This document shows positions 8,256 through 50,500 of a DNA stretch of 61,879 nt, piece by piece. The notes beneath the pieces were generated by a model. That model was not told where the DNA came from, did no database searches, and saw only the letters and a program-made list of their open reading frames with translations. The DNA lies in IMG/VR virus record IMGVR_UViG_3300046115_000122, positions 1 to 61,879 of that record. One strand, written 5' to 3'. Position numbers and translations under genes: made by a program. Within the stretch, counting starts at the first letter, position 1, and every line of letters begins with the position of its first letter. The stretch is from a virus. Lineage: Duplodnaviria; Caudoviricetes.

Positions 8256-8715
8256 AAGCTCCCGTCGATCACTCCTGACCGAAATCTTGCTACCGTTGAG
8301 GTCGTCGACCCGAAACAGGCGCGCTCGGCTCGAAGTACCTCGGGGTGGGGTCTGTGGTGGGGGCCACGGTTCGAGTCGAGCGCTGTCCTGTATTCTGGCA
8401 CGTCCCTTGACGCTCGCGGCAAACCCGCGCTACGCCCCGCTACGACGAATCTCACCCAATCTCATTATTCAATTCTCCTAACAAAAACATCACTTTTGCA
8501 CTTCTGCTTATATCCCCATTGACCCGTCGTTTTCTCGCGTCCTGGTCCATCCTCGCGCGATTTGTTTCTCCTCGTGTTGACCCGCTCCGCCTCGCTCGAG
8601 CGATCAGATCGCTAGTACGCCGCGCAGGCGACGCGCGGTACGCGGGCGCGTAGCGATCGCAAATATATTTCGCGGACGCCGGCAGAAATTATTTCGCGGT
8701 CGATGTTCTTTTTCC

Positions 8716-8770
8716 TTGACCTGGCCGTCTGGTCCACTATCCTTTATTTATGAAACTTGATAACAATCAA
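8716..8770 (+). promoter_or_regulatory. Early promoter cassette, copy 1
   Basis: TTGACC 8716-21, 16-bp spacer, TATCCT 8738-43, ATGAAACTTGATAACAATCAA from 8750. Confidence 0.85.
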
Positions 8771-8784
8771 GATCGGAGGACAGC

Positions 8785-9804
8785 ATGGCTCACAACCTAG
8801 CGACCATCAACGGGAAAGTCGCCATGGCGTACGAAGGCGAGACGCCCTGGCATCACCTCGGCACCCGGATCGAAGGCGACACCGTCCGTAGTATTCCAGC
8901 GGCGATGGCGGCTGCCAGCCTCGACTGGACCGTCGCCCTGCAGCCGGTCTTCACCAAGATCGGCGACACCTACCAGAACATCGACCACCGACGGGCCGTC
9001 GTCCGTGACGGCGACTCCATAGTGCTCGGAGTCGTCTCGCAGTGGTATCACCCCATCCAGAACGCGGAGGCCTTCGGGGTCTTCGCGCCCGCCATGGAAG
9101 AGTTCGGGCTCACGGTCGCCGCGGCCGGCGCCCTCGGCAAGGGCGAGCGTGTGTGGATGCTTTTCAAGCTCCCCACCGTCCTCGCGCCAGTGCCTGGGGA
9201 CGACGTCAACGGCTACGGCCTCGCGATCACTGGCCACGACGGCGCCACGATCGACGAGTTCCGGCCGACGCCGATTCGGGTGGTCTGCCAGAACACGTTG
9301 AACGCCGCGGTCGGTGTCGGCGGCATCAAGGGCCGGATGTTCTCGGTCGCCCACGACGGGCAGGCGAACAAGCGGATCGACGCGGCCCGTGGGATCGTTC
9401 GGAACGTCCTCACCGCGATGCAGCAGACCGGTGAGACGTTCGCGACGATGGCCCGGAAGCGCATGACGCCTGAGCAGGTGGTCGAGTACATCGAGCGCGT
9501 GTTCCCAAACCCGCAAGAGGACAAGGGCAAGGAAGCCTCGAAGCAGCTGCAGGAGAAGCGGCGCCAGGTGGCGGAGCTGGTCTTCCGCGGCAAGGGCGCG
9601 GAGCTGGCGATGTCCGCGACCAACGGTCTCCCGAACCCGTGGGCGGCCTACAACGCGGTGACCGAGTACTTCGACCACGTGAGCACCGGCGAAGCGAAGA
9701 CCGAGAAGGTTCGCATCCAGCGCAGCACGTCGGCGCTCTTCGGCAACAACGACCTCGTTAAGCTGCAGGCGCTGCAGCTGGCGCGCAAGCTGGTGGCCGT
9801 GTAG
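8785..9804 (+). CDS. DUF932/DUF945 family phage/plasmid protein
   Basis: TPWHHLG, LDWTV, TPIRVVCQNTLNAA, WAAYNAVTEYFDH; GGAGG RBS. Confidence 0.9.
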   Translation: MAHNLATINGKVAMAYEGETPWHHLGTRIEGDTVRSIPAAMAAASLDWTVALQPVFTKIGDTYQNIDHRRAVVRDGDSIVLGVVSQWYHPIQNAEAFGVFAPAMEEFGLTVAAAGALGKGERVWMLFKLPTVLAPVPGDDVNGYGLAITGHDGATIDEFRPTPIRVVCQNTLNAAVGVGGIKGRMFSVAHDGQANKRIDAARGIVRNVLTAMQQTGETFATMARKRMTPEQVVEYIERVFPNPQEDKGKEASKQLQEKRRQVAELVFRGKGAELAMSATNGLPNPWAAYNAVTEYFDHVSTGEAKTEKVRIQRSTSALFGNNDLVKLQALQLARKLVAV

Positions 9805-9806
9805 TC

Positions 9807-10139
9807 ATGGTGACCATCACTGACCCCCGTCGTCTGTTGAACGGATTCACCATCGCGGTGGTGCCGTTCCTTAAGTGCTACGTGGGCGGCTGCTACGAGG
9901 AGGCGTCAGTGGGACGCCTCCACCAGCAGTTCGGCCGCGTGGACACGTGCGCCTCCCACGACCCGGCCAAGCACGGGTACGCGCGTCCGTTCGGCGTACC
10001 AGCCCCGATCGCCGAGTTGCCCACCTCTACCATCCCGCCGCTGACCGGAGGCACGCGCGTGCCCCGGCGGCCGATTCAACCGATCATCCCGCCCGCGCCG
10101 GCGGCACTGCCGCTGCCCGGCGCGTTGCGGCCGTTTTAA
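9807..10139 (+). CDS. Hypothetical Pro-rich protein
   Basis: Starts 2 nt after the previous stop. Confidence 0.6.
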   Translation: MVTITDPRRLLNGFTIAVVPFLKCYVGGCYEEASVGRLHQQFGRVDTCASHDPAKHGYARPFGVPAPIAELPTSTIPPLTGGTRVPRRPIQPIIPPAPAALPLPGALRPF

Positions 10140-10153
10140 GAGGGAGAGATGTC

Positions 10154-10663
10154 ATGGGCTACACACATTACTGGGAACGGCCAGAAGAACTAGATCGCGC
10201 GGCGTTCGCGGCGTTCGCCTCGGACTGCCGCCGGATCTTCACGGTGGCTGATGCGCAGGGACTGGCGCTCGCTGACGGGGTCGGCCAAGGCGCACCGCAC
10301 GCGACAGAGGACAGTGTCGTCTTCAACGGCGCCGCGCCGGACGACCACGAGACGTTCGCGGTGGACAGGCTGGCACCCAAGCAGCTCTGGCGGGAGGGTC
10401 CGCTGACATTCACGTTCTGCAAGACGCGTCTCAAACGGTACGACACCGCTGTGACGGCGGTCCTGATCGCGGTGAAGCGCCACTTCCCGATGGCGCGTGT
10501 GAGTTCTGACGGCGATGACGGCTGCTGGGACGCGGGCCGGGCGCTCTGCCAGACCGCTTGCGGCTACGGCGACCGTTTCCACATCACGTACGTCGGCGAT
10601 GACGAAGTACTCGTCGAACAACCTCTTGACATGGCTAGTGGGTCCATTACACTCCCATCATGA
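10154..10663 (+). CDS. Conserved phage hypothetical protein (MGYTHYW type)
   Basis: GGGAG RBS; MGYTHYW...HETF...FCKT..K.YD...VSSDG. Confidence 0.75.
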   Translation: MGYTHYWERPEELDRAAFAAFASDCRRIFTVADAQGLALADGVGQGAPHATEDSVVFNGAAPDDHETFAVDRLAPKQLWREGPLTFTFCKTRLKRYDTAVTAVLIAVKRHFPMARVSSDGDDGCWDAGRALCQTACGYGDRFHITYVGDDEVLVEQPLDMASGSITLPS

Positions 10664-10680
10664 AACTTATCCAGAATCAA
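10626..10680 (+). promoter_or_regulatory. Early promoter cassette, copy 2
   Basis: TTGACA 10626-31, 16 bp, TACACT 10648-53, ATGAAACTTATCCAGAATCAA from 10660. Confidence 0.9.
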
Positions 10681-10830
10681 ACGGACGACGTGGAAATCGA
10701 GGTCACCGATGACCCGCAACAAGAACCAGAGGACCCCCAGCAGGGCGACGTCCCCTGCTGGGGCTGCGGATGCGTCCCCGGCCTCGCCGGTTGCGCTTGT
10801 GACGACTTCGGCTGGAAGGACGACGGTTAA
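10660..10830 (+). CDS. Predicted leaderless 56-aa acidic Cys-rich protein (absent from the ORF track)
   Basis: MKLIQNQTDDVEIEVTDDPQQEPEDPQQGDVPCWGCGCVPGLAGCACDDFGWKDDG; ATG at predicted +1. Confidence 0.65.
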   Translation: MKLIQNQTDDVEIEVTDDPQQEPEDPQQGDVPCWGCGCVPGLAGCACDDFGWKDDG

Positions 10831-10849
10831 CACGCTCGCCGACAACCCG

Positions 10850-11047
10850 GTGCTGCGGGCGCTGGCGCACCCGTGCTGGCGGAAGACGAAGCACGACAGT
10901 CGCGGAAAAGCGGAAGCAGCCATGCGCGGGCTGCTCAATCGGACGGAGCGGCTCCGCGACGGCGACAGCCTGTGCGTCTATCGCTGTAAGTGGTGCGCGC
11001 ATTTTCACGTTGGCCACGACCGCGGGCAGAAAGGAGCGCGGCGATGA
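10850..11047 (+). CDS. Small Zn-ribbon-like protein (start uncertain)
   Basis: C.RK...A.........VYRCKWCAHFHVGH. Confidence 0.55.
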   Translation: MLRALAHPCWRKTKHDSRGKAEAAMRGLLNRTERLRDGDSLCVYRCKWCAHFHVGHDRGQKGARR

Positions 11048-11316
11048 AAGCGATTCTCGACAAGCAGGTCGCCACCGTCGAAGAAACGTGCGGCGACTAC
11101 ATCGTGCTCAGGACCGAGCCGTGGGCGACGACGATGGTTCATCTGTCGCACCGGGACCTCGTCATCGACCCGACGGACGAGCAGATCGCCACGGTCGAGC
11201 GCGGTGAAGACCTGCCGCGGTGCGTGGAATGTGAATCGTTGGGCTGCAACTGCGCGGAGATCGCCGCGCTGATGGACGAGTCCGGCATCACGAAGAAAAA
11301 GGACAAGGAGAGCTGA
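11044..11316 (+). CDS. Hypothetical protein
   Basis: AAGGAG RBS, ATGA overlap. Confidence 0.7.
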   Translation: MKAILDKQVATVEETCGDYIVLRTEPWATTMVHLSHRDLVIDPTDEQIATVERGEDLPRCVECESLGCNCAEIAALMDESGITKKKDKES

Positions 11317-11356
11317 CATGACCAAACCCACCATCCACAATCAAACGGAGGCGACG

Positions 11357-11587
11357 ATGAGCACCATGAAGCCGGCGGATGTCAGAGTCGACGACAAACC
11401 CTACTACCGCGAATACCGCAAGACCCCGCGCGGCAGCGGCGGCTGGGCGTTCTGCACGGTCAGCCCGAATCGCGCGGACTACCTGGACCACATGCTCTGG
11501 GAGCGCGGCGCCTACGGCGCGGCGAAGCGGGCCGCCAAGCTGCGCGCCGCTGGCCTCAACGTCTCGGTTCTTTACGTCTGCAGCTAG
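11357..11587 (+). CDS. Hypothetical protein (alternative start 11318)
   Basis: GGAGG RBS; PRGSGGWAF motif. Confidence 0.65.
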   Translation: MSTMKPADVRVDDKPYYREYRKTPRGSGGWAFCTVSPNRADYLDHMLWERGAYGAAKRAAKLRAAGLNVSVLYVCS

Positions 11588-11596
11588 GAGTTGGCG

Positions 11597-11791
11597 ATGA
11601 CGAAGTTCTACCAGTTGGCCAGCGACTACAACCTGAAGTGCCAACGCCTCTTCATCGAGGACGGCATTTACTGGAAGGACCTCGGGACAGTCGATGGCGA
11701 CGCCGAATTTCGCGAGCGCGACGTGCGTGAGCGCCTCGCCAACTACGCGGTGGCCTACAAACTCGGCGACGTGACTTGGATTCGGAAGTAG
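11597..11791 (+). CDS. Hypothetical protein
   Basis: AGGAG RBS. Confidence 0.65.
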   Translation: MTKFYQLASDYNLKCQRLFIEDGIYWKDLGTVDGDAEFRERDVRERLANYAVAYKLGDVTWIRK

Positions 11792-11800
11792 GAGGGCGCC

Positions 11801-12133
11801 ATGACGAAACAGCGCGAAATCGACATCCTCGACGCCACCATCAAGTCGCTCGGTCCCGACTCCTACCTCGGCCCGTGGCTGAAAGAGTCGCGGCCGTCGC
11901 TCGTGGCGGACATCAGCAACGACTTCCCGGTGGTCTGCCAGATGCCCGGCGCGGCCAGGGCGGAGGCGCTCGACATTATCCAGGGGGCCGAGACGCGCGC
12001 CCGTGCGATTCGCGAGGACGCCGAGAAGCAGGCGCGCGACGTCGTCGAGAAGGCCTACGCGCAGGCGGCCGACATCCGGCGGAAAGCGCGCTGGGCGGTC
12101 GAGCGACTGGCCGAGCAGTTGACGGAGCGGTGA
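11801..12133 (+). CDS. Coiled-coil hypothetical protein
   Basis: AGGAGG RBS; EA..II..AE..A repeats. Confidence 0.7.
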   Translation: MTKQREIDILDATIKSLGPDSYLGPWLKESRPSLVADISNDFPVVCQMPGAARAEALDIIQGAETRARAIREDAEKQARDVVEKAYAQAADIRRKARWAVERLAEQLTER

Positions 12134-12249
12134 GAGCGGCCCGAGCGGGTCGCGAACGGAAAGGCGGCTACTGAGTCCGCCAACATCCAGCGTAGACGGG
12201 ACGGCCGAGCGATTTGCAGCCGTCCCTCTTTCCTCAGCAGGAGGTAGAC

Positions 12250-12639
12250 ATGGCCGAGTCCGCGATGCCTGACCACTACGACCGACTCCTCGGCGCCCTC
12301 GACGGGCTGCCGGGCGTGCTGGCCACCGAGCCATCCACGATCGAGATCATCACCCCACTCCTGGGCACGAGTCAGACGTTCATCGTCCGCACCGTGCGCC
12401 AGCAGGATCGCGTGGAGCGCGACGGCAAGGAAACCGCGCTGCCCGCGAAGTTCACCGTGTTCCTGAAGTTCGACTCGGTCCACGGGCTCATCAAGGTCGC
12501 GTTGCCGCCGAAGGTCGCGGACCTGATCGCACGGCAGCGGGACGCGCTCACCACGCGGGCGAACAAACGAACAGCCAGGCGGGCGGCCGAAACGCGCAAG
12601 GAGCGCGGGTACGTCCCGACGTTCACGAAGAAGAAGTAG
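12250..12639 (+). CDS. Hypothetical protein with basic C-terminus
   Basis: AGGAGGT RBS, ATG at 12250. Confidence 0.7.
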   Translation: MAESAMPDHYDRLLGALDGLPGVLATEPSTIEIITPLLGTSQTFIVRTVRQQDRVERDGKETALPAKFTVFLKFDSVHGLIKVALPPKVADLIARQRDALTTRANKRTARRAAETRKERGYVPTFTKKK

Positions 12640-12674
12640 AGCGTTCCAACAATAGACACCAGAGGAGAACGACG

Positions 12675-12968
12675 ATGACTGTGAAGATTATTCCGAACGA
12701 CAACGGCAACCCTCCAGGGAAAGTCGCGGACGCCGAGCTGCACTTCGAGGACGGTCCGCTCGCAGGGCTCAAGCTGGTTGGCTTCTGCGTCTGGGAGCGG
12801 AGGGCGGGTGCAGGCCTCAACGTCACCTTCCCGGCCAGGGCGTACTCGATCAACGGTGAGCGGCGGTCGTTCGCGCTGCTCCGTCCGATCGTCGACCAAG
12901 CGGCGGCGGACCGCATCAGGGATCTGATCGTTGATGCGTATCTGCGAGAGAAGGCCGCGGCGGCGTAA
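12675..12968 (+). CDS. SpoVG-like nucleic-acid-binding protein
   Basis: Beta-rich N-half (GKVADAELHF, LKLVGF.VW, NVTFPAR..GERRSF..RPI) plus C-terminal helix ending ..DAY, as in SpoVG. Confidence 0.55.
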   Translation: MTVKIIPNDNGNPPGKVADAELHFEDGPLAGLKLVGFCVWERRAGAGLNVTFPARAYSINGERRSFALLRPIVDQAAADRIRDLIVDAYLREKAAAA

Positions 12969-13034
12969 GCCGAAACCGGGCTTCGGCCCGGTTGTCACGG
13001 GCTCGGCTCCCGTGGCCTGACGATGGCAGCCGAG
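12969..13034 (+). ncRNA. Type II hammerhead ribozyme with pseudoknot
   Basis: GCC-GAAA-stem III (CCGGGC UUCG GCCCGG)-UU-stem I (GUCACGGG/CCCGUGGC)-CUGACGA-U-GGC; loop I CUCGGCU complements AGCCGAG (13028-34). Confidence 0.88.
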
Positions 13035-13048
13035 AAGGGAAGTGGGAG

Positions 13049-13966
13049 ATGGCGATCGCATTGAAGAAAGACCCGCTGTTCGAGCAATACAAGCGCACCT
13101 CGCGCGTCGGCGACATCGAGTTCTGGCTCAGGGCTCAGGGCTCGAGGATGACGCCGCAGACAAAAGCCGACTTCGAGCAACTGCTCGTCACGGCCAGGGT
13201 CGACCTGGAGAAGAACCGGATGCCGACTGGCGCGACGCTCCAGCGCTACATCGTCCTCACCCAGCGACACTGGTCGGAGCGGCCGATGGCGGAGCGACGT
13301 CGGACGCACATGCCGGAGTTCGCGAAGGTCGACGCGACCTTTCGTGACCTCACGACACGTCTCACGACCGAGGTCACCGAAGGCCTCAACAGTCAAGCGG
13401 CGACGGCGACGGTCCACGACTGGACGGTGACGCTGGCGCAGGTGAATCCCGAGGAGACGCGGCGGTTCTCGAAGTGGCTGGTGACAGCCACGAAGCGCAC
13501 CGGACTCCCGCCCGAGGTCTGCGAGCTGGACGAGAAGCACGACAAGACCGAGGCCGTGCTGGCTGCGGTCCGATTCCTGGAGCACCGGCTCCACGACCTG
13601 TTCCGCGAGTTGTCGGTGAGCGCGTCGGCCGACACGTTCGCGCCGGCGTTGGTGCCAGCCGAACCGGAGCCAGACCAGATCGCCGCGTGGGAGGCCGATG
13701 GCGGCGCACCAGAGCCAGAGGCGCCGCTGGTCATCAGCTACGGCTCGGCGGTCGTCCACCACACCACGACACCTTCGCCCGTTGTCAGCGAGGCGCCAGC
13801 GCCCGCCGGTCGCCTCCTGCAATGGCGCTACGCCTGGACCATCAAGGGCGAGCGCGCGGAAGGGGAGATCGCGGCGGCCAGCGAGGCGGCGGCCAGGCTC
13901 GCCATCCGTCAGCAGTTCGGATTCAAGTGGTTGCCCGACCGGACCACGATCGTGCGTGCGTCGTAG
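13049..13966 (+). CDS. Hypothetical protein
   Basis: GGGAG RBS just after the ribozyme; ATG at 13049. Confidence 0.7.
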   Translation: MAIALKKDPLFEQYKRTSRVGDIEFWLRAQGSRMTPQTKADFEQLLVTARVDLEKNRMPTGATLQRYIVLTQRHWSERPMAERRRTHMPEFAKVDATFRDLTTRLTTEVTEGLNSQAATATVHDWTVTLAQVNPEETRRFSKWLVTATKRTGLPPEVCELDEKHDKTEAVLAAVRFLEHRLHDLFRELSVSASADTFAPALVPAEPEPDQIAAWEADGGAPEPEAPLVISYGSAVVHHTTTPSPVVSEAPAPAGRLLQWRYAWTIKGERAEGEIAAASEAAARLAIRQQFGFKWLPDRTTIVRAS

Positions 13967-14016
13967 GTGCTGCGTGGAGCGCATGAAAATAAATTGTGCG
14001 CTCCACCGCAAACCTC

Positions 14017-14071
14017 TTGACACAGCTGGCTGGTCCTTTACACTTCTTACATGAAACTTATCAACAATCAA
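14017..14071 (+). promoter_or_regulatory. Early promoter cassette, copy 3
   Basis: TTGACA 14017-22, 16 bp, TACACT 14039-44, ATGAAACTTATCAACAATCAA from 14051. Confidence 0.9.
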
Positions 14072-14254
14072 GTGACGGAAGTAACGGAAATGCTGAAACG
14101 CGCCATCGACGCGGCCATCGCCTATGACGCGCTGCCGGTGCGTTATGTGCGCTGCCCGCGCAATGGGTGGGCGGGCTACAAGGGCTGTCGGCGCATTACG
14201 AAGTTCCACTTCTCGGAAGCTGCCGCGAAACTCGAGCTGGGCTACACCACGTAG
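14051..14254 (+). CDS. Predicted leaderless hypothetical protein (MKLINNQ...)
   Basis: ATG 7 nt after the last -10 base; no SD. Confidence 0.65.
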   Translation: MKLINNQVTEVTEMLKRAIDAAIAYDALPVRYVRCPRNGWAGYKGCRRITKFHFSEAAAKLELGYTT

Positions 14255-14264
14255 GAGGCTTGTC

Positions 14265-15368
14265 ATGACACTGGTGCGAGAGTTCCAGAGCAAATCGGAT
14301 CCCGGAAGGAAGTATAAAGTCACACGGAACCCGGCGACGGGAACCTACTGGTGCACGTGCTGGCCGTGCAAGCGGAACCACACGTGCCCCCACATTGAGA
14401 CGGTGCAGGCGGAGGCGGGCACGCAGTATCTGCCGGACCCCCACCGAGGCCCGCGCGAAGTGGGCGGCTGCGTGGTCGTGGCCTCGTCGCCGGCGCCAGT
14501 GGTTGTGCGCCAGGCCGCGGCGTCCGCGAGCGCGCTGGGCTGGACGAAGCCGATGCTGGCCAGCGCGATGAAGCCAGGCACGACCATCGCGGCGTACGAG
14601 GACGACGCGTTCGTGCTGCAGGAGAAGAAGGACGGCGACCGGGTGCTGGTCCGCAAGCAGGGGGACGCGGCGCAGGCGTGGAGCCGCCCGAAGGCCGGCA
14701 AGGAACCGCTCGCACGGATGCTCCCGCCGGACATCTTGGCCGCCGTGCTGGAACTGCCAGACGGGCTCTACGACGGCGAGTTGATGCTCCCGGGCACGAC
14801 CTGCCGGACGGACGCGCCGCGCGGCTACTTCCTGTTCGACCTCCTCGAACTGCTCGGGGAGAACCTGCACGGCAAGCCGTTCAGCGAGCGCCACGATCTC
14901 CTCACCCTCGCGGTTGCCCACCACACGGTCGCACGGACCGCGCAGGACGGATCGGTCGAGGGACCCATCCTCCTCATCGTCCCGCCGCTCGAGCCCGTGA
15001 GTATGGATGCCATCGAGCGCCTGTGGGCGGCTGGCAAAGAGGGCGCCGTGTTGAAGAGGCTCGAATCAACCTATCAACCAGGACACCGAACCGCGGACTG
15101 GATCAAAGTCAAAAAATCAGCCGTCGACGTTTTGACCATCGTCGGTTTCAAAGCCGGGAAGCTCGGCCCGTACGCCGTCGCCGAATTGAGATCAGATGAC
15201 GGCCGAGAGACGCGCGTCACCACAAAGGACGGGGCCACAATGCGCGACGTTGCAAAAGACCCCAGTCGTTACATCGGCCGTCGGCTCGTCATTGCTTACA
15301 CCGAGAAAACCGAGAGCGGTTCATGGCGTCACGCAGGTTGGGATCATGTGCTCGGAGTTGGCGAATGA
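14265..15368 (+). CDS. ATP-dependent DNA ligase with N-terminal SWIM-type Zn finger
   Basis: KPMLA, motif I EKKDGDR, DGEL, FDLL, EGAVLK, WIKVK; N-terminal WCTC...TCPHI; AGGAGG RBS. Confidence 0.9.
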   Translation: MTLVREFQSKSDPGRKYKVTRNPATGTYWCTCWPCKRNHTCPHIETVQAEAGTQYLPDPHRGPREVGGCVVVASSPAPVVVRQAAASASALGWTKPMLASAMKPGTTIAAYEDDAFVLQEKKDGDRVLVRKQGDAAQAWSRPKAGKEPLARMLPPDILAAVLELPDGLYDGELMLPGTTCRTDAPRGYFLFDLLELLGENLHGKPFSERHDLLTLAVAHHTVARTAQDGSVEGPILLIVPPLEPVSMDAIERLWAAGKEGAVLKRLESTYQPGHRTADWIKVKKSAVDVLTIVGFKAGKLGPYAVAELRSDDGRETRVTTKDGATMRDVAKDPSRYIGRRLVIAYTEKTESGSWRHAGWDHVLGVGE

Positions 15369-15973
15369 GGGCCTTTCAACTAGCCGGAGAGCGATTCGGC
15401 AGGCTTGTGGCGACAACGCTGGCAGGCAAAGACCGCTTCGGGCTCCTGCTCTGGAAATGTCAGTGCGATTGCGGCGCGACGACCATCGTGCCAGGCCGGG
15501 ATCTAGTTCGTGGGCGCACTAAGAGTTGCGGTTGCCTCTCGGCTGATGTCACCAGGGCTCGGAATCGTCGACACGGCCTACGCCGTCTGCCGGAGTATGA
15601 AATCTGGAAGGCGATGAAGCAGCGGTGCGGGAATCCTCGCAGCAAGGATTTTCCTGATTACGGCGGCCGAGGAATATCGGTCAGCGAGCCATGGCGTCGC
15701 AGTTTCGCAGTGTTCTACGCCGACATGGGACCGAGGCCGCCGGGCGCGCTTCTAGACAGACGCGATAACGAAGCTGGTTACTCCAAAGAGAACTGTCGGT
15801 GGGCGACGGCGACCCAGTCCGTAGCCAACAGGCGGCCTAAGACGCATTGCAAGAACGGTCACGCATTCACTCCTGAGAACACCAAAACCTACGCCGACGG
15901 GCGGCGGTCCTGCTGGACCTGCCTGCTCGCCTATCACCGTCGCTGGCAGCGACAACGAAAGGAACGGTCATGA
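15365..15973 (+). CDS. HNH-type homing endonuclease-like protein
   Basis: GERFGRL, WKCQCDCG, KSCGC, MKQRC.NP, YGGRGI, LDRRDN..GY..ENCRWAT, KTHCKNGH. Confidence 0.85.
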   Translation: MRAFQLAGERFGRLVATTLAGKDRFGLLLWKCQCDCGATTIVPGRDLVRGRTKSCGCLSADVTRARNRRHGLRRLPEYEIWKAMKQRCGNPRSKDFPDYGGRGISVSEPWRRSFAVFYADMGPRPPGALLDRRDNEAGYSKENCRWATATQSVANRRPKTHCKNGHAFTPENTKTYADGRRSCWTCLLAYHRRWQRQRKERS

Positions 15974-16052
15974 CGACACGGTATCGACTCTATCGGTTGT
16001 GCGGCTGGCACCCGCTCACGGCGGCGTTCTGGTCTGCGTGTGGAGGTGAGTG

Positions 16053-16322
16053 ATGAATGTTTGGATTGCGTACGCGGAGCACGGCGCGGTGCACCAGGAC
16101 CGCGTTGACATCGGGGTCTACACTACGGAGGCGGCGGCGCAAGTCGCGGCGGACAAGGCCCTGCGCGACGCCATCGAGGAGGGCCAGATCCCCTACTACC
16201 ATCCCGACACGCACGAGGAAGAGGCGGACTGGGACATCGACACGGGGGTTGATGGCCCCTTCAATCTCGACGACGCTGTTGAAGGCGACAGCGACCGCCA
16301 GGCGAAGGAGGTGCGACCATGA
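16053..16322 (+). CDS. Acidic hypothetical protein
   Basis: GGAGGT RBS. Confidence 0.7.
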   Translation: MNVWIAYAEHGAVHQDRVDIGVYTTEAAAQVAADKALRDAIEEGQIPYYHPDTHEEEADWDIDTGVDGPFNLDDAVEGDSDRQAKEVRP

Positions 16323-16567
16323 AGAACAACACTATCACCCTTCCTGGCGGTATTGAGGCTGTGCCGCACAACCTCAAGTGTCACATCCCTGGTTGCCGTC
16401 GTCGGAAGCATGGGTATCTCACGGTCGATCGCTCTAACCTTGGTGGTGGAGCGTTCTACGACAAGAGCGGACGCCTGCTCGCGGATCTCCGTGAGCGTCA
16501 CTTCGTCTGTTCCGAGCACGGCATTGCCGACGGCTCAGCGCCGTTCCTGATCGAGGATAGAGGCTGA
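16319..16567 (+). CDS. Hypothetical protein
   Basis: AGGAGG RBS, ATGA overlap. Confidence 0.65.
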   Translation: MKNNTITLPGGIEAVPHNLKCHIPGCRRRKHGYLTVDRSNLGGGAFYDKSGRLLADLRERHFVCSEHGIADGSAPFLIEDRG

Positions 16568-16570
16568 GGC

Positions 16571-16599
16571 TTGCAGGATTGATTGTTGAGATGTATCGT
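16571..16599 (+). promoter_or_regulatory. Putative regulator promoter with an inverted AACAATCAA box
   Basis: TTGCAG-17 bp-TATCGT; TTGATTGTTGA (16579-89) is the reverse complement of TCAACAATCAA. Confidence 0.6.
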
Positions 16600-16606
16600 G
16601 CGCCGC

Positions 16607-16867
16607 ATGACCAAACGAAAGCGAGATGCGGTGCGGGGTGGGTATCGCGAAGGGGCGGGCCGGAAGTCGTTGTTTCCCGGGAAGTGGGAAAACGGCGGGC
16701 CCGCACCAGGCGCGGGGTGCGTGAAGACAGTGCTGGGGCGACCGTCGTTCGAGGCGCTCCACGCCAAGCAGGAGGAGCTCTCGGCTCGGGAAGGTCGGCC
16801 GGTGACGATGAGCGACACGGTCGAGTGGTGTATTCGGAAGGCGACACGGACGCCGATGGACGCGTGA
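16607..16867 (+). CDS. Small putative DNA-binding regulator (RGGxRxGAGRK motif, RHH-like helices)
   Basis: RGGYREGAGRK, then helices SFEALHAKQEEL / TMSDTVEWCI. Confidence 0.65.
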   Translation: MTKRKRDAVRGGYREGAGRKSLFPGKWENGGPAPGAGCVKTVLGRPSFEALHAKQEELSAREGRPVTMSDTVEWCIRKATRTPMDA

Positions 16868-16879
16868 CTGTCTTCCCTC

Positions 16880-16934
16880 TTGACCGGGCTGGCCGGTCTG
16901 ATAGGATCACGTTATGGAACTTACCAACAATCAA
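16880..16934 (+). promoter_or_regulatory. Early promoter cassette, copy 4
   Basis: TTGACC 16880-85, 16 bp, TAGGAT 16902-07, ATGGAACTTACCAACAATCAA from 16914. Confidence 0.85.
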
Positions 16935-17354
16935 CAGAAGCCGCCCGTGTATAGCTTCGGCTATCAGGGTCAGGCGGTGGAGCCGTTCGCGCGGCGCGTC
17001 GTCGAGCTGGGCGCCACCGTCATCGACACTCGGCTGAAGCCGTACAGCCGGAACCCCACCTGGAACAAGTCGAGGCTCCAGGCCGTGCTGGGCGACCGCT
17101 ACGTGTGGGTCGAGGCATTGGGCAACCTGAACTACAAGGGCGGGCCGACGGTCATCAAGGACCTCGAGCACGGGCTCGCGAACGTCCGCACGCGCCTGGC
17201 GGCAGGGCCGGTCGTCCTCATCTGCGTCTGCGCAGACGTGACGGACTGTCACCGGAACGTCACGCTGGCCGCGCTGCGGTCGGAGGGGTTTCTCACGATC
17301 GAGTGGGCGGCCATCACCACGCCAGCGACCAAGAAGGCGCCGGCGCTGTTCTGA
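16914..17354 (+). CDS. DUF488 family protein (predicted leaderless)
   Basis: YSFGYQG, VIDTRLKPYSR, YVWVEALGN, LICVC.D...CHR. Confidence 0.8.
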   Translation: MELTNNQQKPPVYSFGYQGQAVEPFARRVVELGATVIDTRLKPYSRNPTWNKSRLQAVLGDRYVWVEALGNLNYKGGPTVIKDLEHGLANVRTRLAAGPVVLICVCADVTDCHRNVTLAALRSEGFLTIEWAAITTPATKKAPALF

Positions 17355-17374
17355 GGGACGACGTGCTGCCAGAC

Positions 17375-17554
17375 ATGGTCTACGTCCTCCTCGACAACCG
17401 AGGCGAGGAATGCGGCGGATTCGTCGGCGTCTACCGCACGCTGGAAGGCGCGCAGAAGTACGTCGCCACCCACTACCCGAGTGAGGCCAAATGGAAGGCC
17501 TGGCCCGAGCGCGAGCGAGAAGTTGCTGCGCGTCTTCGTAAAGCGTCTCTGTGA
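17375..17554 (+). CDS. Hypothetical protein, 3' end probably replaced by insert DNA
   Basis: MVYVLL...VGVY.TLEGA; its last codons overlap the antisense insert. Confidence 0.5.
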   Translation: MVYVLLDNRGEECGGFVGVYRTLEGAQKYVATHYPSEAKWKAWPEREREVAARLRKASL

Positions 17555-18891: not shown

Positions 18892-19190
18892 GCCGGGCAG
18901 CATAGCAGCGAATGACCGCGAGGCGTTGGTACGGGCCGGTTTTGGCAGTTTTATGATGCAGCTCCGCGCGCGAGGGCATCGACAGCATCGACCGGACCTC
19001 TTGACGCGGCGTGTTACACTGGCCGCGCTCGTCCCCCACGAGCACCGCATTTCCACAGCCAACCCCACCCCGAACGGCGACGCCAGTAGTCCGCCGGTAG
19101 CTCAGGCTGGATAGAGCACCGCGATTCTTTCGCGGAGGTCGGACGTTCAAATCGTCCCCGGTGGTCCACCGCGGCGTGTGCGTCAGTGCT

Positions 19191-21772: not shown

Positions 21773-22282
21773 ATGGGCCGCCGGAATGGACGCCCGTCGA
21801 AGCTCACGCCAGACGTGCAGGACACGATCTGCCAGCACATCGAGCTGGGGCAGTTCCAGCACATCGCGGCGGCGCTGGCCGGCATCTCGGATGAGACGTT
21901 CTGGCGGTGGATGCGCCAGGGCGAGGATGTCGTCGAAGAGGGCACCGGGCGCGTTCTCCAGGTCGCCCCGAAACGGTTCCGCCTGTTCCGCGCGGCCGTG
22001 CTGCAGGCCCGCACCAAGTGCGAGGCCGCGATGGTGGTCAACGTCCGGCTCGCGGCGCAGAACGGCGACTGGAAAGCCGCGGCGTTCTGGCTCGAACGCG
22101 TCTTCCCCGAACGGTGGGGACGGCGCACGCGGTTGGAGCACGTCGGCGAGGGTGGGGGCCCAGTGAAAGCGGAGGTCGCGGTCGATTTCGACCGATTGTT
22201 CAGCGAATTGAGTAGTGACGAACGCGCTGTTGTCAGAACCATCCTGGAGCGCCGCGCTCTCCAATCCGGCCCGAGCGCTTGA
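21773..22282 (+). CDS. terS: Terminase small subunit
   Basis: GRPSKLTP, AAALAGIS..TF..W, DWKAAAFWLER..P..WG; directly precedes TerL. Confidence 0.85.
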   Translation: MGRRNGRPSKLTPDVQDTICQHIELGQFQHIAAALAGISDETFWRWMRQGEDVVEEGTGRVLQVAPKRFRLFRAAVLQARTKCEAAMVVNVRLAAQNGDWKAAAFWLERVFPERWGRRTRLEHVGEGGGPVKAEVAVDFDRLFSELSSDERAVVRTILERRALQSGPSA

Positions 22283-26172: not shown

Positions 26173-26414
26173 CGCCGCTGGAATGGCCCGTGGACCCGCG
26201 CGGTCAGTGGTCCGCGCGGCAAGTACCCTACGTGCTCGAGGCGAACGCCACGTTCTGTCTGGAGCGCGGGATCGAACTCCGCGTCCTCGACATCAGCACG
26301 TGGGGTGAGCCGTTCTGTCGCCTGATTACCGTTCACTGTCGCCGGCACGCCGCGCGGATCGACATGGACGCGGGCTGCCCACGCTGTGTGAAGGAGTCGA
26401 CCGATGCCGATTGA
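26169..26414 (+). CDS. Hypothetical protein
   Basis: ATGA overlap. Confidence 0.55.
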   Translation: MTPLEWPVDPRGQWSARQVPYVLEANATFCLERGIELRVLDISTWGEPFCRLITVHCRRHAARIDMDAGCPRCVKESTDAD

Positions 26415-40686: not shown

Positions 40687-41811
40687 GTGGCCAACACCCT
40701 CTCTCCCATTATCCCGAAGCTGCTCGCGCAGGGCCTGATGGCACTGCGCCAGATGGCGATCATGCCCCGGGTCGTGAATCGCGGCTACGAAGGCACGGCT
40801 GGCGAGAAGGGGTCCATGGTCGAAGTGCCGATCCCGTCCGCGATTGCCGCGCAGGCCGTGTCGCCGTCCAACACGCCGCCGACAACCGCCGACATCGCGC
40901 CGACCGTCGCGCAGGTGGCCCTCGACCAGTGGTATGAGGCGCCGTTCTACATGACGGACAAGGACTTCCTCGAAGTCGAGCGCGGCATCATCCCGATGCA
41001 GGCCTCCGAGGCCGTCAAGTCCCTCGCCAATATCGCCGACAACTACATCCTCGGCAAATACAAGGAAATATACGGGTTCGCCGGCACGCCGGGGACCACG
41101 CCGTTCGCGGCCGATGTCTCGGCCTACACCGCGGCGCGCACCGTGCTGAACAAGCAGCTGGCGCCGATGGAACCCCGGTTCGTGGTCCTCGGGCCCGACG
41201 CCGAAGGCAACGCGCTCGGCCTGCGCGCATTCCAGGACGCGTCGTTTACCGGCAACCTCGACGGCATCATCAACGGGCAGATCAACAACAAGCTGGGCGC
41301 CCGCTGGCTGATGGACCAGAACATCCCGACGCACACCGCCGGGACCGGCACGGGCTACCTCGTGAACAACGGTGCGGGCTATGCGATCGGCATCAAGACG
41401 ATTGCGGTCGACACCGGCACGGGCACCGTGCTGGCTGGCGACATCATCACGTTCTCAACGCACACGCAGACCTACACGGTCGTGTCGTCGGTCGGCGGTG
41501 GCACCGTCACCTCGATCACCTTCGAGCCCGGCCTGGTGGTCGCGGTCGCGGACAACGTCGCGCTGACGCTCAAGGCCAGCCACGTCGTGAACCTCGCCCT
41601 GCACCGTGACTCCATCGCGTTTGGGTCGCGGCCGTTCGCGGGCGCCGATCCGATGGGCATCGGCAACTTCCTCAGCGCGGTCGACCCCGTCTCAGGCCTG
41701 ACGCTGCGACTCGAGGTGACGCGCGAGCACAAGCGCACGCGCTTCTCCTACGACCTCCTCTTCGGCGCGAAGACCGTCCGGCCCGAGTTGGGCACGCGGA
41801 TCGCCGGATAG
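40687..41811 (+). CDS. Major capsid protein, P22 coat-like with inserted beta domain
   Basis: MANTL..VNRGY..KG..V.VP; MDQNIP.HT.G; AGDIITF; LHRD..AF; DLLFG.KT.RPEL..RI. Confidence 0.9.
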   Translation: MANTLSPIIPKLLAQGLMALRQMAIMPRVVNRGYEGTAGEKGSMVEVPIPSAIAAQAVSPSNTPPTTADIAPTVAQVALDQWYEAPFYMTDKDFLEVERGIIPMQASEAVKSLANIADNYILGKYKEIYGFAGTPGTTPFAADVSAYTAARTVLNKQLAPMEPRFVVLGPDAEGNALGLRAFQDASFTGNLDGIINGQINNKLGARWLMDQNIPTHTAGTGTGYLVNNGAGYAIGIKTIAVDTGTGTVLAGDIITFSTHTQTYTVVSSVGGGTVTSITFEPGLVVAVADNVALTLKASHVVNLALHRDSIAFGSRPFAGADPMGIGNFLSAVDPVSGLTLRLEVTREHKRTRFSYDLLFGAKTVRPELGTRIAG

Positions 41812-47538: not shown

Positions 47539-50500
47539 TTGGCCGGCATCAATTTGGGAACAATCTACGCGAGGCTCACCGCTGACGACGAACTGTCGGC
47601 CGTGCTCGCGCGCGCCTCGACCAACCTCGACACCTTCGCGAAAAAAGCCGACCGGATGGGGTCCCGCCTGCAGGCCGCCGGCGGGCAGCTCACGACGGCC
47701 GTCACCGTCCCGATCGTGGCGATGGGCGCCGCCATCATCAAGACCGGCGCCGACTTCGACCGCGGGATGAACCTCGTCAACGCGGTGCTCGAGGCCACGC
47801 CGCCGCAGATGGAGATACTGCGGAAGAAGGCCATCGAGATGGGCCGCGACACGGTCTTCTCCGCCTCCGACGCGGCCGAAGCGCTCGCCGAGCTGGCCAA
47901 GGCGGGGCTCGACGTCGACGAGACGATGGGCGCCGTGTCGCCCGTCATGCAACTGGCGGCCGCCTCCGGCCTCTCCATGGGCGAAGCGGCGTCGATCTCG
48001 GCACGCGCGATGCGGGCGTTCGGGCTCGAGACGTCCGACCTCACGCACCTCAACGACATTCTCGCGAAGGGCGTCAACGACTCCACGCTCGAGTTGACTG
48101 ACATCGCCACGGCCTTCAAGTACGTCGGCCCTGTGGCGACAGGCTTCGGGATGACGGTCGCCCAAACGGTCGCAGCGCTCGCGGAGATGCGCGACGCTGG
48201 CCTTGGTGCGTCCATGGCCGGCCGCGCATTGCGTGAAGGCCTTGAGCGCCTCGCGAACCCTGTCAAGAGCGTCCGCGACGTGATGGGGGAACTCGGGATC
48301 GAGTCCTTCATGTCTGGTGGCAGCCTGATGAACCTGTCCCAGGTCATCGGGCTGCTGGAGTCGAAGTCACTCTCGGTACCGCAGTCCCTCAAACTGTTCG
48401 GGGACGCGGCCGGACCAGGGATGTACGCCCTCGTTCATCGAGGGAAAGAGGCGCTCGATGAATTGACGCTGTCGTTCGACGGTGCGAGCGGCACGGCGCA
48501 AAAGATGGCCGACGCGATGATGTCCGGCTTGCCTGGCGCGCTCGAACAGTTGCGCGGCTCGGTTGAAACGGCGCTCATCGCGTTGAAGGACGCCTTCGAG
48601 CCGACGCTGATTCGGGTCATCCAGACCGCCGAACGGGCGGCGGACTTCGTGACGAACCGTCTGGTGCCGGCGTTTACATCGCTCCCAGTGGGTGTCCAGC
48701 AGGGCGTGCTGGCGTTCATCGCCATGCTCGCGGCGCTGGGGCCCGTGCTGGTCGGCCTGGGCACCTTCATTCGGGTCGTGGGCTTCGCGGCCGAAGGGCT
48801 CCAGGTGCTGATCACCTACCTCGGACCGGTCGTGCGCCTGTGGGGACTCCTCGGGGCCGCCTTCGCGGCCGTCTCGTGGCCGGTCGTCGCCATCGTCGCG
48901 TTCGTCTCAGCGGTCGGGGCGGCGGGCGTCGCCGTCCTGAAGTTCACCGGGCTCTGGGATCCGCTGATGGGCATGCTGTCCGACGTCATGCGCATCGCGA
49001 AGAACCTCGTCATCCTGGGCTTCGAAGAGATGAAGACCGTGCTCGAGGACGTGGCGCACGTCATCACGGGCATGTTCAAGGACGCCTGGGTGGAAATGCG
49101 GTCGATGCTGGCCGGGATCCTCGGCGTGACGGAGGCGCAGGTGATTCCCGCGCTGAAGGGCATCGGGCTCGCCGTCCTGTCGTCCATCCCGGGCCTGCGG
49201 GAGATGATCTCGGCCATCGCCTGGCTGAAGAACAACGTCCCGGGGGCGTCGAGAGGGTTGAAGGGCGCGGCGGACGCGTCGGATGCGCTGGTGAAGGCGG
49301 CACGCGAGCGTGGGGCGCCACCGCTCCCGCCAGGATTCGGCAGTGCCGCATTTCCGACCGGCCTCGGCATGGGGCTCGGCAGCATCGGCAGCGAGACGAA
49401 GTGGACGTTGCCTACCGCGCCGCGAGGGGGTAGTGGTGGCGGCGGGGGCAAGGTCGACAGCGCGTGGAAGGACTTCCTCGACGAGATCAGCGGCCGCTCG
49501 GCGGTCACCGAAGCGCAGAAGTGGATGCGTGGCCTGGAGGCCATCGGCGGCCTGACCAAGATGACCGCCGAGACGCAGGACCGGCTGAACAACGTCCTCG
49601 GCGACGCGCTGACCGCGTACGCCGCGCTCGGCGTGCGCGCCCCCGTCGACATGGCCAAGGTCTGGCTCGCGACGCTCCCGACGCCCAAGGTCATCACCGG
49701 GCTGGGCGAGCTCGCGGAGCACGTCCTCGACGTCAAGAAGTCGATCGCGGTCCCGTTCGAGTCCTTCCTGCCGGTGACGTCTGGACTGGGCAACCTCGCC
49801 GGCGCCGGCGCGACCGGCGTGATGGCTGGCGCCGGGCTGAAGAAGATGCCGACGTTCCTGCAGGACGCCTTCGGGAGCGCCGGGGACTTCGGCTCGAACC
49901 TGTCGAAGACCATCATGTCGGCGGTCACGGGCGGCGGCTCGGTCGTCAACGCCGTGAGCGGGATGCTGGGCGGCAGTCTGATGTCGGGTGTGGTCGGCCG
50001 GTTCTCGAAGACGTTTGCCAGCACGTTCCTCGGCGGCACGCTCTCGGCGATTCTGCCGGGACTCGGCGCGCTCGTTGGCCCGCTGATGGAGAAGATCACC
50101 AGCCTGTTCAATAAGCCCGAGTGGAAAAAGATCCTGTCGGGCGTCGGCCGTGACTGGGGGGTCGACATCTCCGAGGGCCTCGCGAAGTCGATCGAGACGG
50201 ACGCCAAGCGCCTGAATAGCCGGTTTGCCGCGACGCTCTTGCACATCGCCGACATCGTGAAGGAAGGAGGCGGCGTCGAGAAGTTCGGGCTGGAGAAGAC
50301 CATCGCGAAGACGCGCGACCTGTTTGTCGAGGTGGGCCAGAAGGCGATCACGACGAAGGAGGCCGCGACGGCGATGGGCTCCATCTTCCCGCAGATCGCC
50401 GAGGTCATCGTCAAGAGCAACCGGATTGCGTCCGCGTCGTTCGTGGAACTCATCGCGCTCAACAAGCAGTTCGGACTCGACACGCAGGAGATCCTCACGT

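What the first reader, a model, noticed from the sequence alone, without database searches (positions are those of the whole stretch)
12969..13034. Pseudoknotted type II hammerhead ribozyme inside an early operon
Seen: core elements in type II order. Stem II GCC (12969-71)/GGC (13025-27); GAAA; stem III capped by cUUCGg; GUU triplet with predicted cut after 12993; 8-bp stem I; CUGACGA (13017-23) plus one extra U; and a perfect 7-bp loop-I pseudoknot CUCGGCU/AGCCGAG. Known: pseudoknotted type II hammerheads occur in bacteria and phages, mostly without a known role. Inference: it splits the polycistron between the SpoVG-like stop and the next RBS, giving a hairpin-protected upstream RNA and a 5'-OH downstream mRNA.
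Basis: partly seen in the sequence, partly recalled or inferred. Interest (0 to 1): 0.88.

Follow-up and report, generated by a model that had tools for sequence, protein, structure and literature searches.

The report
Type II hammerhead ribozyme between phage genes
A well-formed self-cutting RNA (a type II hammerhead ribozyme) fills the gap between two genes of an uncultured sediment phage, probably cutting one long message in two; it is real but belongs to a kind known in phages since 2011.

Summary
Rfam's Hammerhead_II model (RF02276) matches window 12968-13035 (+) over its full length at 48.9 bits (cut-off 37, E 5.2e-07). It is the only ribozyme hit in the 61.9-kb phage record. All 25 proposed pairs are standard pairs, including the 7-bp loop I/3'-tail pseudoknot. 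The ribozyme starts one base after the TAA of a 97-aa gene and ends one base before the ribosome-binding site of a 305-aa orphan gene. Both genes are on the + strand, between two promoter-like sites with no + strand terminator. No orthologue of this exact copy was found. However, 102 related copies in viral contigs show strong covariation for all three stems and the pseudoknot core. They also show the same stop-ribozyme-RBS layout. The extra U after A9 is a common natural variant. Unusual features are the GUU cut site (4 of 95) and the 7-bp pseudoknot (1 of 95). "SpoVG-like" was not confirmed. Cleavage and its effect remain untested. This scan has already noted such phage hammerheads on other DNA. 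Verdict: a new member of a known kind, of modest interest.

The parts
10626..10653 (+). Promoter-like site (TTGACA, 16 nt, TACACT); likely start of the transcription unit that holds the ribozyme
   Evidence: 10 of 12 consensus matches. Five promoter-like sites were found in 8500-17500, against 0.8 expected from shuffles.
12675..12968 (+). Upstream gene, 97 aa, stop TAA at 12966-12968; function unknown ('SpoVG-like' not confirmed)
   Evidence: GC3 0.80. No Pfam or PHROG hit. Two relatives at 72-73% identity in IMG/VR.
12968..13035 (+). Type II hammerhead ribozyme, whole Rfam match
   Evidence: RF02276, 48.9 bits (cut-off 37), E 5.2e-07, model 1-66 of 66; own model R1, 56.4 bits.
12969..12971 (+). 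Stem II, 5' strand (GCC)
   Evidence: pairs with GGC at 13025-13027.
12972..12974 (+). Core G12 A13 A14
12975..12992 (+). Stem III hairpin: 7 bp from A15.1-U16.1 outwards, UUCG loop at 12982-12985
   Evidence: A variant contig of run X3 has G12985A, in the loop.
12993..12993 (+). H17 = U; predicted cleavage between 12993 and 12994
   Evidence: alignment. U at this position in 4 of 95 related copies and C in 90.
12994..13016 (+). Stem I hairpin: 8 bp with a 7-nt loop
13002..13008 (+). Loop I, 5' strand of the pseudoknot (CUCGGCU)
   Evidence: 7 Watson-Crick pairs with 13028-13034.
13017..13023 (+). Core C3 U4 G5 A6 N7 G8 A9 (CUGACGA)
13024..13024 (+). Extra U between A9 and G10.1
   Evidence: Treated as an insertion in the alignment. 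Present in 59 of 95 related copies (the set was seeded with a pattern that requires it) and in 159 distinct full-pattern sequences.
13025..13027 (+). Stem II, 3' strand (GGC)
13028..13034 (+). 3' tail, 3' strand of the pseudoknot (AGCCGAG)
   Evidence: The family-level pseudoknot core covaries or is conserved.
13035..13040 (+). Shine-Dalgarno-like AAGGGA, 8 nt before ATG 13049
   Evidence: Read. The assignment is an inference.
13049..13966 (+). Downstream gene, 305 aa, orphan
   Evidence: frame GC3 0.86. No Pfam or PHROG hit. No relative in IMG/VR. No usable Atlas hit.
14017..14044 (+). Next promoter-like site, marking the start of the following unit

Best explanation
This is a functional cis-cleaving type II hammerhead ribozyme, transcribed as part of a + strand polycistronic phage mRNA that probably starts at the promoter-like site at 10626.

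Once the 3' tail (to 13034) has been made, the RNA folds into the three-way junction. Loop I pairs with the tail in a 7-bp pseudoknot that stacks on the 3-bp stem II. The RNA then cuts itself between U12993 and G12994.

- **Upstream product.** It carries the genes up to the 97-aa ORF and ends, 25 nt after its stop codon, in the GC-rich stem III hairpin with a 2',3'-cyclic phosphate.
- **Downstream product.** It begins with a 5'-OH at the base of stem I. It keeps both pseudoknot strands and presents the ribosome-binding site of the 305-aa gene directly after that structure.

The likely purpose is to uncouple the stability or translation of the 305-aa gene's message from that of the upstream genes.

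Shown here by computation: the motif, its placement, and family-level selection on the structure. Inferred: transcription, cleavage, and the effect on expression.
For: - **Rfam match.** Full-length RF02276 match at 48.9 bits against a cut-off of 37, and the only such hit in the window. The same family search gave no match in any of the 14 control genomes.
- **Core and pairs.** All conserved core bases and all 25 proposed pairs are present.
- **Energy.** The nested hammerhead fold is -30.1 kcal/mol. A crude -11.1 for the pseudoknot duplex makes it competitive with the nested-only minimum of -36.6.
- **Covariation.** 102 related copies (92 distinct rows) were aligned to my model. 91.6% of cells are paired, against 71.7% in shuffles (0 of 500 shuffles reach it) and 33-58% when partners are slid. 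18 of 24 pairs have changes on both sides. The pseudoknot was not part of the model, yet its GG/CC core pairs in 85-87 of 87 rows with letters.
- **Layout in relatives.** Of 95 distinct copies with their flanks, 81 have an ORF of 60 aa or more (30 where the contig end cuts the frame) ending within 60 nt upstream (median gap 3 nt; 70 within 20 nt). 74 have an SD-led start within 80 nt after stem II (median 27 nt). All copies on a locus share one strand.
- **Window layout.** The gap to the upstream stop is -1 nt. The ATG lies 21 nt after stem II. Genes are nearly all on the + strand, there is no + strand terminator-like site in 8500-17500, and promoter-like sites sit at 10626 and 14017.
- **Literature.** Type II hammerheads with this pseudoknot are reported to cleave in vitro and, after cloning in E. 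coli, in vivo. Clustered copies were proposed to process phage transcripts (PMC3088659, passages). Three type II copies were shown to be active in Desulfovibrio vulgaris (PMC8782182, abstract and passages).
Against: - No orthologue of this exact copy was found, so its own stems have no direct covariation support. The four related phage records I reached have no hammerhead (0 of 4). In the two relatives of the upstream gene, the next gene overlaps it directly.
- The phage has only one copy. That is unlike the arrays on which the processing idea was built.
- The cut-site triplet is GUU, found in 4 of 95 copies. I recall, without a citation checked here, that GUU is slower than GUC in minimal hammerheads.
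- The 7-bp pseudoknot is the longest of 95 copies. The 2011 paper reports that changes around the pseudoknot or longer stems can lower activity by orders of magnitude.
- The nested-only minimum-free-energy fold is not the hammerhead, and the region's z-score is only -1.16.
- There is no RNA evidence at all.
- The alignment used for stem counts was fitted to the model, so it leans towards the model's structure.
Confidence: 0.6

Rival explanations
1. The ribozyme is active, but its effect is negative. Cleavage exposes a 5'-OH end that marks the downstream 305-aa message for decay, as with the glmS ribozyme. The element would then hold down expression of the last gene of the unit.
For: The glmS precedent: cleavage followed by degradation by cellular RNases lowers expression (PMC6765202, passages). 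I recall from memory that RNase J1 is the nuclease involved. The downstream gene is the last before the next promoter-like site.
Against: The 5' end of the 3' product is base-paired in stem I and held in a pseudoknot, which should hinder 5' exonucleases. In relatives the ribozyme sits before nearly every gene of an array, which fits poorly with a silencing role. The host and its RNases are unknown.
Confidence: 0.17
2. The ribozyme is a passenger at a mosaic junction. It arrived with the 305-aa gene cassette, or served as a short conserved sequence for recombination between phages. It may still cleave, but it has no tuned role in this phage.
For: Synteny breaks exactly here. In L002 and L003 the homologous upstream gene is followed directly by a different gene, with no ribozyme. 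The downstream gene is an orphan. The core strand and tail are shared with copies in unrelated phages: the exact 18-mer occurs in L006, and 159 distinct sequences fit the full pattern.
Against: The core is intact with no disabling change. In this set, the pseudoknot is longest in this copy. The same sequence is present unchanged in a second sediment sample. The one variant seen in the ribozyme lies in a loop (up to three more differences of that contig were not shown to me). Family-wide covariation shows selection on the RNA fold, not only on DNA identity.
Confidence: 0.13
3. It is an inactive look-alike. The extra U after A9, the GUU site and the over-long pseudoknot together abolish cleavage.
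For: All three features depart from the strict consensus. The 2011 paper found that small changes near the pseudoknot cost orders of magnitude in rate. The nested minimum-free-energy fold prefers another structure.
Against: The extra U is in 59 of 95 related copies and 159 distinct sequences that keep full covarying structure. U is an allowed H17 (consensus quoted). The match scores 12 bits above Rfam's cut-off.
Confidence: 0.06
4. It is a translational switch. The helix CUCCCGU (13007-13013) with GUGGGAG (13042-13048) masks the region just before ATG 13049 unless the ribozyme fold forms, which would couple translation to correct folding or cleavage.
For: This helix appears in the nested minimum-free-energy structure of 12966-13052. 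It excludes stem I.
Against: Across 66 related copies, pairing between the stem I 3' strand and the 23 nt at the start codon is no stronger than with shuffled strands (mean z 0.05; 4 of 66 below -1.64). The ribozyme should fold before 13042-13048 is transcribed.
Confidence: 0.03

Closest known systems
Hammerhead ribozyme type II with loop I/3'-tail pseudoknot (Rfam RF02276; Perreault et al. 2011, PMC3088659)
   Same: Same core, same permutation (stems I and III capped, stem II open and short), and same pseudoknot between loop I and the bases right after stem II. It scores above the family cut-off.
   Different: The pseudoknot is 7 bp; the other 94 copies I compared have at most 5. The cut-site triplet is GUU, where 90 of 95 have GUC. 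There is one extra U between A9 and G10.1, which proved to be a common natural variant.
Clustered hammerheads flanking single genes in prophages (Perreault et al. 2011, Figure 3 text; arrays seen here in L006, L019, L053, L081, L105, L121)
   Same: Phage context and the same strand as the genes. The ribozyme fills the gap between a stop codon and the next ribosome-binding site.
   Different: Here there is a single copy in 61.9 kb, not an array. It would therefore make one cut in the unit, not one per gene.
glmS ribozyme (5'-UTR self-cleavage that controls mRNA decay)
   Same: Self-cleavage in an mRNA gives a 5'-OH downstream fragment whose fate sets gene expression (PMC6765202).
   Different: A different fold, a metabolite cofactor, and a 5'-UTR position. 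No ligand dependence is suggested here.

Membership tests
Hammerhead ribozyme, type II (RF02276) | Conserved core: C3 U4 G5 A6 N7 G8 A9, G12 A13 A14, A15.1-U16.1, H17 (consensus as quoted from the Methods of PMC3088659) | tested here: met
   CUGACGA at 13017-13023; GAA at 12972-12974; A12975-U12992; U12993.
Hammerhead ribozyme, type II (RF02276) | Three-way junction in the type II permutation: stems I and III closed by loops, stem II open | tested here: met
   alignment. All pairs are standard.
Hammerhead ribozyme, type II (RF02276) | Score at or above Rfam's gathering cut-off over the full model | tested here: met
   48.9 bits against 37, model positions 1-66 of 66.
Hammerhead ribozyme, type II (RF02276) | Intact pairs next to the core (1.1-2.1, 10.1-11.1, 15.1-16.1) | tested here: met
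   G12994-C13016, G13025-C12971 and A12975-U12992. An extra U (13024) lies between A9 and G10.1, as in 59 of 95 relatives.
Hammerhead ribozyme, type II (RF02276) | Pseudoknot of 4 or more pairs between loop I and the bases just after stem II | tested here: met
   7 Watson-Crick pairs, 13002-13008 with 13028-13034. Family core pairs are conserved or covary.
Hammerhead ribozyme, type II (RF02276) | Structure kept by compensatory change in relatives | tested here: inconclusive
   Strong at family level: 18 of 24 pairs have two-sided changes, and 0 of 500 shuffles reach the score. No orthologue of this copy was found.
Hammerhead ribozyme, type II (RF02276) | Mg-dependent self-cleavage 3' of H17, giving 2',3'-cyclic phosphate and 5'-OH ends | not testable with these tools
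   No RNA run holds the sequence. A bench assay is needed.
Clustered intercistronic phage hammerheads (Perreault 2011) | Lies between co-oriented genes of a phage or prophage, on their strand | tested here: met
   Stop at 12968, ATG at 13049.
Clustered intercistronic phage hammerheads (Perreault 2011) | Several copies close together flanking single genes or short blocks | tested here: not met
   One copy in the window by Rfam at gathering and at E up to 5, and by model R1.
SpoVG (PF04026), for the upstream 97-aa gene | Match to the Pfam model, or to solved SpoVG structures | tested here: not met
   No Pfam hit even at E up to 10. Best PDB sequence hit has E 0.29, ribosomal protein L19. The AlphaFold model (pLDDT 80.9) gave 0 Foldseek PDB matches at E 0.001 or better, and no SpoVG entry among the rows printed, out of 87 matches at E up to 10. 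The only lead is an ESM Atlas neighbour cluster in which 14% of members carry PF04026.

The most novel reading that the evidence does not exclude
After cleavage, the ribozyme's remains are not waste. They would act as a protective 5' cap structure. Both pseudoknot strands stay on the downstream RNA, whose very first base (G12994, 5'-OH) is paired at the foot of stem I. The 305-aa gene's message would therefore start with a compact 8-bp + 7-bp pseudoknot directly followed by its ribosome-binding site. On this reading, the unusually long 7-bp pseudoknot of this copy was selected for exonuclease resistance of the product, analogous to viral exoribonuclease-resistant RNAs, more than for catalysis.
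Probability: 0.1. Interest if true: 0.55.

Novelty: new member of a known kind. Interest (0 to 1): 0.25.

Why it matters
This adds one clean, single-copy example to the large and functionally unresolved set of phage hammerheads. A lone ribozyme with a defined upstream gene block and one downstream gene is a simpler test case than the dense arrays. With it one can ask what cleavage does to the two halves of an operon. It also shows that the extra U after A9 is a widespread natural variant: at least 159 distinct sequences in viral contigs and bacterial genomes, mostly Planctomycetota and Streptomyces. It does not reveal a new kind of system.

Tried and rejected
1. **Orthologues of this copy.** Relatives of the upstream gene (L002, L003), of the 141-aa gene (L004) and of the ligase (L005) were found, but 0 of 4 records hold a hammerhead. 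The downstream gene has no relative in IMG/VR.
2. **Annotated phage collection.** megablast and blastn of 11500-15500 gave no match.
3. **Expression.** No RNA holder was listed among 4 runs, all DNA contigs of sediment metagenomes. Laying them showed an identical 366-nt contig in X2. It also showed a variant contig in X3 with G12985A in loop III. Three further differences of that contig were not listed to me.
4. **Internal AUG as start codon.** The AUG made by A9-U-G10.1 was tested as the start of the next gene and rejected. It is in frame in only 14 of 52 copies that carry the extra U. Where the downstream flank prints a recognisable SD-led start, it lies about 20 to 50 nt further on. In the window it opens only a 13-codon frame.
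5. **SD-masking switch.** Rejected at family level.
6. **SpoVG identity of the upstream gene.** Not supported.
7. **Second ribozyme in the other 80-nt gap (12134-12213).** Nothing found.
8. **Literature on dense arrays in Streptomyces or Planctomycetes phages.** The listings of searches (titles and abstract openings only) showed no paper that looked relevant. Searches gave Perreault 2011, cyPhyRNA-seq and the 2019 review. Supplements of these papers (alignments, figures S1-S8) could not be seen. They may already show copies with the extra U.

Full report
**What is there.** The window is a 61,879-base IMG/VR virus record, classed as linear and about 77% complete. Nearly all its genes are on the + strand. 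It has a large terminase at 22215, a portal at 26404, a major capsid protein at 40687 and a tape measure at 47539.

Rfam's covariance model for type II hammerheads (RF02276) matches 12968-13035 on the + strand over all 66 model positions. The score is 48.9 bits against a curated cut-off of 37, with E 5.2e-07. It is the only Rfam family above threshold. A permissive scan to E 5 adds only the tRNA-Arg and two chance microRNA hits. The same family search found no match in any of the 14 control genomes.

- Stem II is GCC 12969-71 with GGC 13025-27.
- GAA(A) is at 12972-75.
- Stem III has 7 bp and a UUCG loop.
- H17 is U12993, so the predicted cut lies between 12993 and 12994.
- Stem I has 8 bp, including one U-G.
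- CUGACGA is at 13017-23, followed by an extra U at 13024.
- Loop I (13002-08) and the tail right after stem II (13028-34) form seven Watson-Crick pairs.

**Surroundings.** The ribozyme begins one base after the TAA (12966-68) of a 97-aa gene. It ends one base before AAGGGA (13035-40), which lies 8 nt ahead of ATG 13049 of a 305-aa gene. The 80-nt gap is therefore almost entirely ribozyme.

Promoter-like sites on the + strand lie at 8716, 10626, 11313, 14017 and 16880. That is five found against 0.8 expected. All nine terminator-like sites in 8500-17500 are on the - strand. The ribozyme therefore sits inside a unit that probably runs from 10626 to about 14000, and it would split off that unit's last gene. 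This agrees with an earlier first-reader note on the promoter cassettes; I tested that note only through. Whether the unit is 'early' is unknown.

Neither flanking protein has a Pfam or PHROG match. The 305-aa protein has no usable relative in IMG/VR or the ESM Atlas.

The 'SpoVG-like' label for the 97-aa protein was not confirmed:
- There is no Pfam hit even at E 10.
- There is no significant PDB sequence hit.
- A fairly confident AlphaFold model (pLDDT 80.9) found no PDB structure at E 0.001 or better, and no SpoVG entry among the rows printed for the 87 weak matches.
- The only lead is an Atlas neighbour cluster in which 14% of members carry PF04026.

**Relatives.** I found no orthologue of this exact copy. 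Two phages with a 72-73% identical upstream gene have the next gene overlapping it directly and carry no hammerhead. Two more distant relatives also lack one.

The same DNA occurs unchanged in a 366-nt contig of a second sediment sample. A variant contig in a third sample differs inside the ribozyme at G12985A, in the stem III loop. Three further differences of that contig were not displayed.

The ribozyme's core strand and tail are shared with many other copies. An exact 18-mer found L006, a 5.1-kb contig with five Hammerhead_II matches: four above Rfam's cut-off and one at 36.8 bits. The pattern CTGANGATGGCAGCC hit 117 or more viral stretches. Of 126 pattern matches in the loci then held, 48 had the 5' half of a hammerhead at the right distance.

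I built a covariance model from 44 of these sequences. It found 102 copies at E 1e-4 or better in 51 sources, with the window's copy at 56.4 bits.

On that alignment:
- 91.6% of pair cells are standard pairs, against 71.7% in shuffles (0 of 500 reach it) and 33-58% when partners are slid.
- 18 of 24 pairs show changes on both sides.
- The pseudoknot's GG/CC core pairs in 85 to 87 of the 87 rows with letters. The pseudoknot was not in the model, so this count is not biased by the fit.

The stem counts do lean towards the model, because the alignment was fitted to it.

**Ordinary and unusual features of this copy.** The extra U after A9 is ordinary. It is present in 59 of 95 distinct copies (a set seeded with it). 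It is also present in 159 distinct sequences that fit the full pattern in viral contigs and bacterial genomes. Most of the 80 listed genome titles are Planctomycetota, with 7 Streptomyces and 2 Paenibacillus.

Unusual features are U at the cut site (4 of 95; C in 90) and the 7-bp pseudoknot, the only one longer than 5 bp among 95. The 2011 paper reports that altering the geometry around the pseudoknot can cost orders of magnitude in rate. Activity of this copy is therefore likely but not certain.

**Layout across the family.** Of the 95 copies, 81 have an ORF of 60 aa or more (30 where the contig end cuts the frame) ending within 60 nt upstream (median gap 3 nt). 74 have an SD-led start within 80 nt after stem II (median 27 nt). 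Every locus with several copies has them on one strand. The window's copy fits this layout, with gaps of -1 nt and 21 nt. It stands alone, however, whereas some contigs carry 6-9 copies.

**How it most likely works.** The ribozyme should fold during transcription and cut between 12993 and 12994. This leaves an upstream RNA that ends in the stem III hairpin with a cyclic phosphate. It also leaves a downstream RNA that starts with a paired 5'-OH base, keeps stem I and the pseudoknot, and presents its ribosome-binding site immediately after.

The idea that hammerheads process phage polycistronic RNAs into pieces with different stability or translation was proposed in 2011 and repeated in a 2019 review. 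Neither settled it. The direction of the effect is open, because the glmS precedent shows that cleavage can lead to decay.

Two further ideas were tested and rejected. The internal AUG is not the start codon of the next gene. A helix that masks the start region appears in the nested minimum-free-energy fold, but it has no family-wide support.

**Comparison and verdict.** The element meets every sequence and structure criterion of RF02276 that can be tested here. Cleavage itself cannot be tested with these tools. It shares the intercistronic phage context of the clustered hammerheads but is not part of a cluster. This scan has already recorded many phage hammerhead arrays on other DNA (111 findings in at least 101 genomes). 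The finding is a genuine, tidy new member of a known kind. Its interest lies mainly in being a simple single-cut test case and in its long pseudoknot.

Noticed in passing
L105 6400-13934, L121 8545-13471, L053 315-3789, L019 161-5111, L081 246-5343, L006 19-3706: Dense same-strand arrays of type II hammerheads in IMG/VR contigs: 9, 7, 7, 7, 6 and 4-5 copies, roughly one per gene. The copies are a mix of forms with and without the extra U after A9. This scan has noted such arrays before.
   Followed up: partly
e.g. L065 2853-2919 (-), L038 4693-4761 (+), L112 10744-10809 (+): In the Planctomycetota-type copies, a conserved box CCAUCG follows the pseudoknot tail at a fixed distance (AGCC-A-NN-CCAUCG). 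CCAUC is complementary to GGUGG of stem I/loop I, so an alternative pairing is possible. It is unexplained.
   Followed up: no
window 13023-13064: A9, the extra U and G10.1 spell AUG. In the window this opens a 13-codon frame that overlaps the start of the 305-aa gene in another frame.
   Followed up: partly
window 8716, 10626, 14017, 16880: Four near-identical promoter-like sites (TTGAC[AC], 16 nt, TAnnnT), each followed within about 7 nt by an ATG. This suggests leaderless transcripts. Small ORFs at 10660 and 14051 begin MKLIQNQ and MKLINNQ (first-reader note e1-6319758).
   Followed up: partly
window 12134-12213: A second 80-nt intergenic gap in the same unit has two GC-rich hairpins but no Rfam or R1 match. 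Its folding z-score is only -0.62.
   Followed up: yes
window 12675-12900: Many short, 10-20% divergent contigs from all four sediment runs align to the 97-aa gene only and then diverge. The gene is therefore shared by many different phages or genomes in these samples.
   Followed up: no
window 19091-19168: tRNA-Arg (anticodon TCT) lies just upstream of a 491-aa gene, ahead of the ParB-like gene and the terminase.
   Followed up: no
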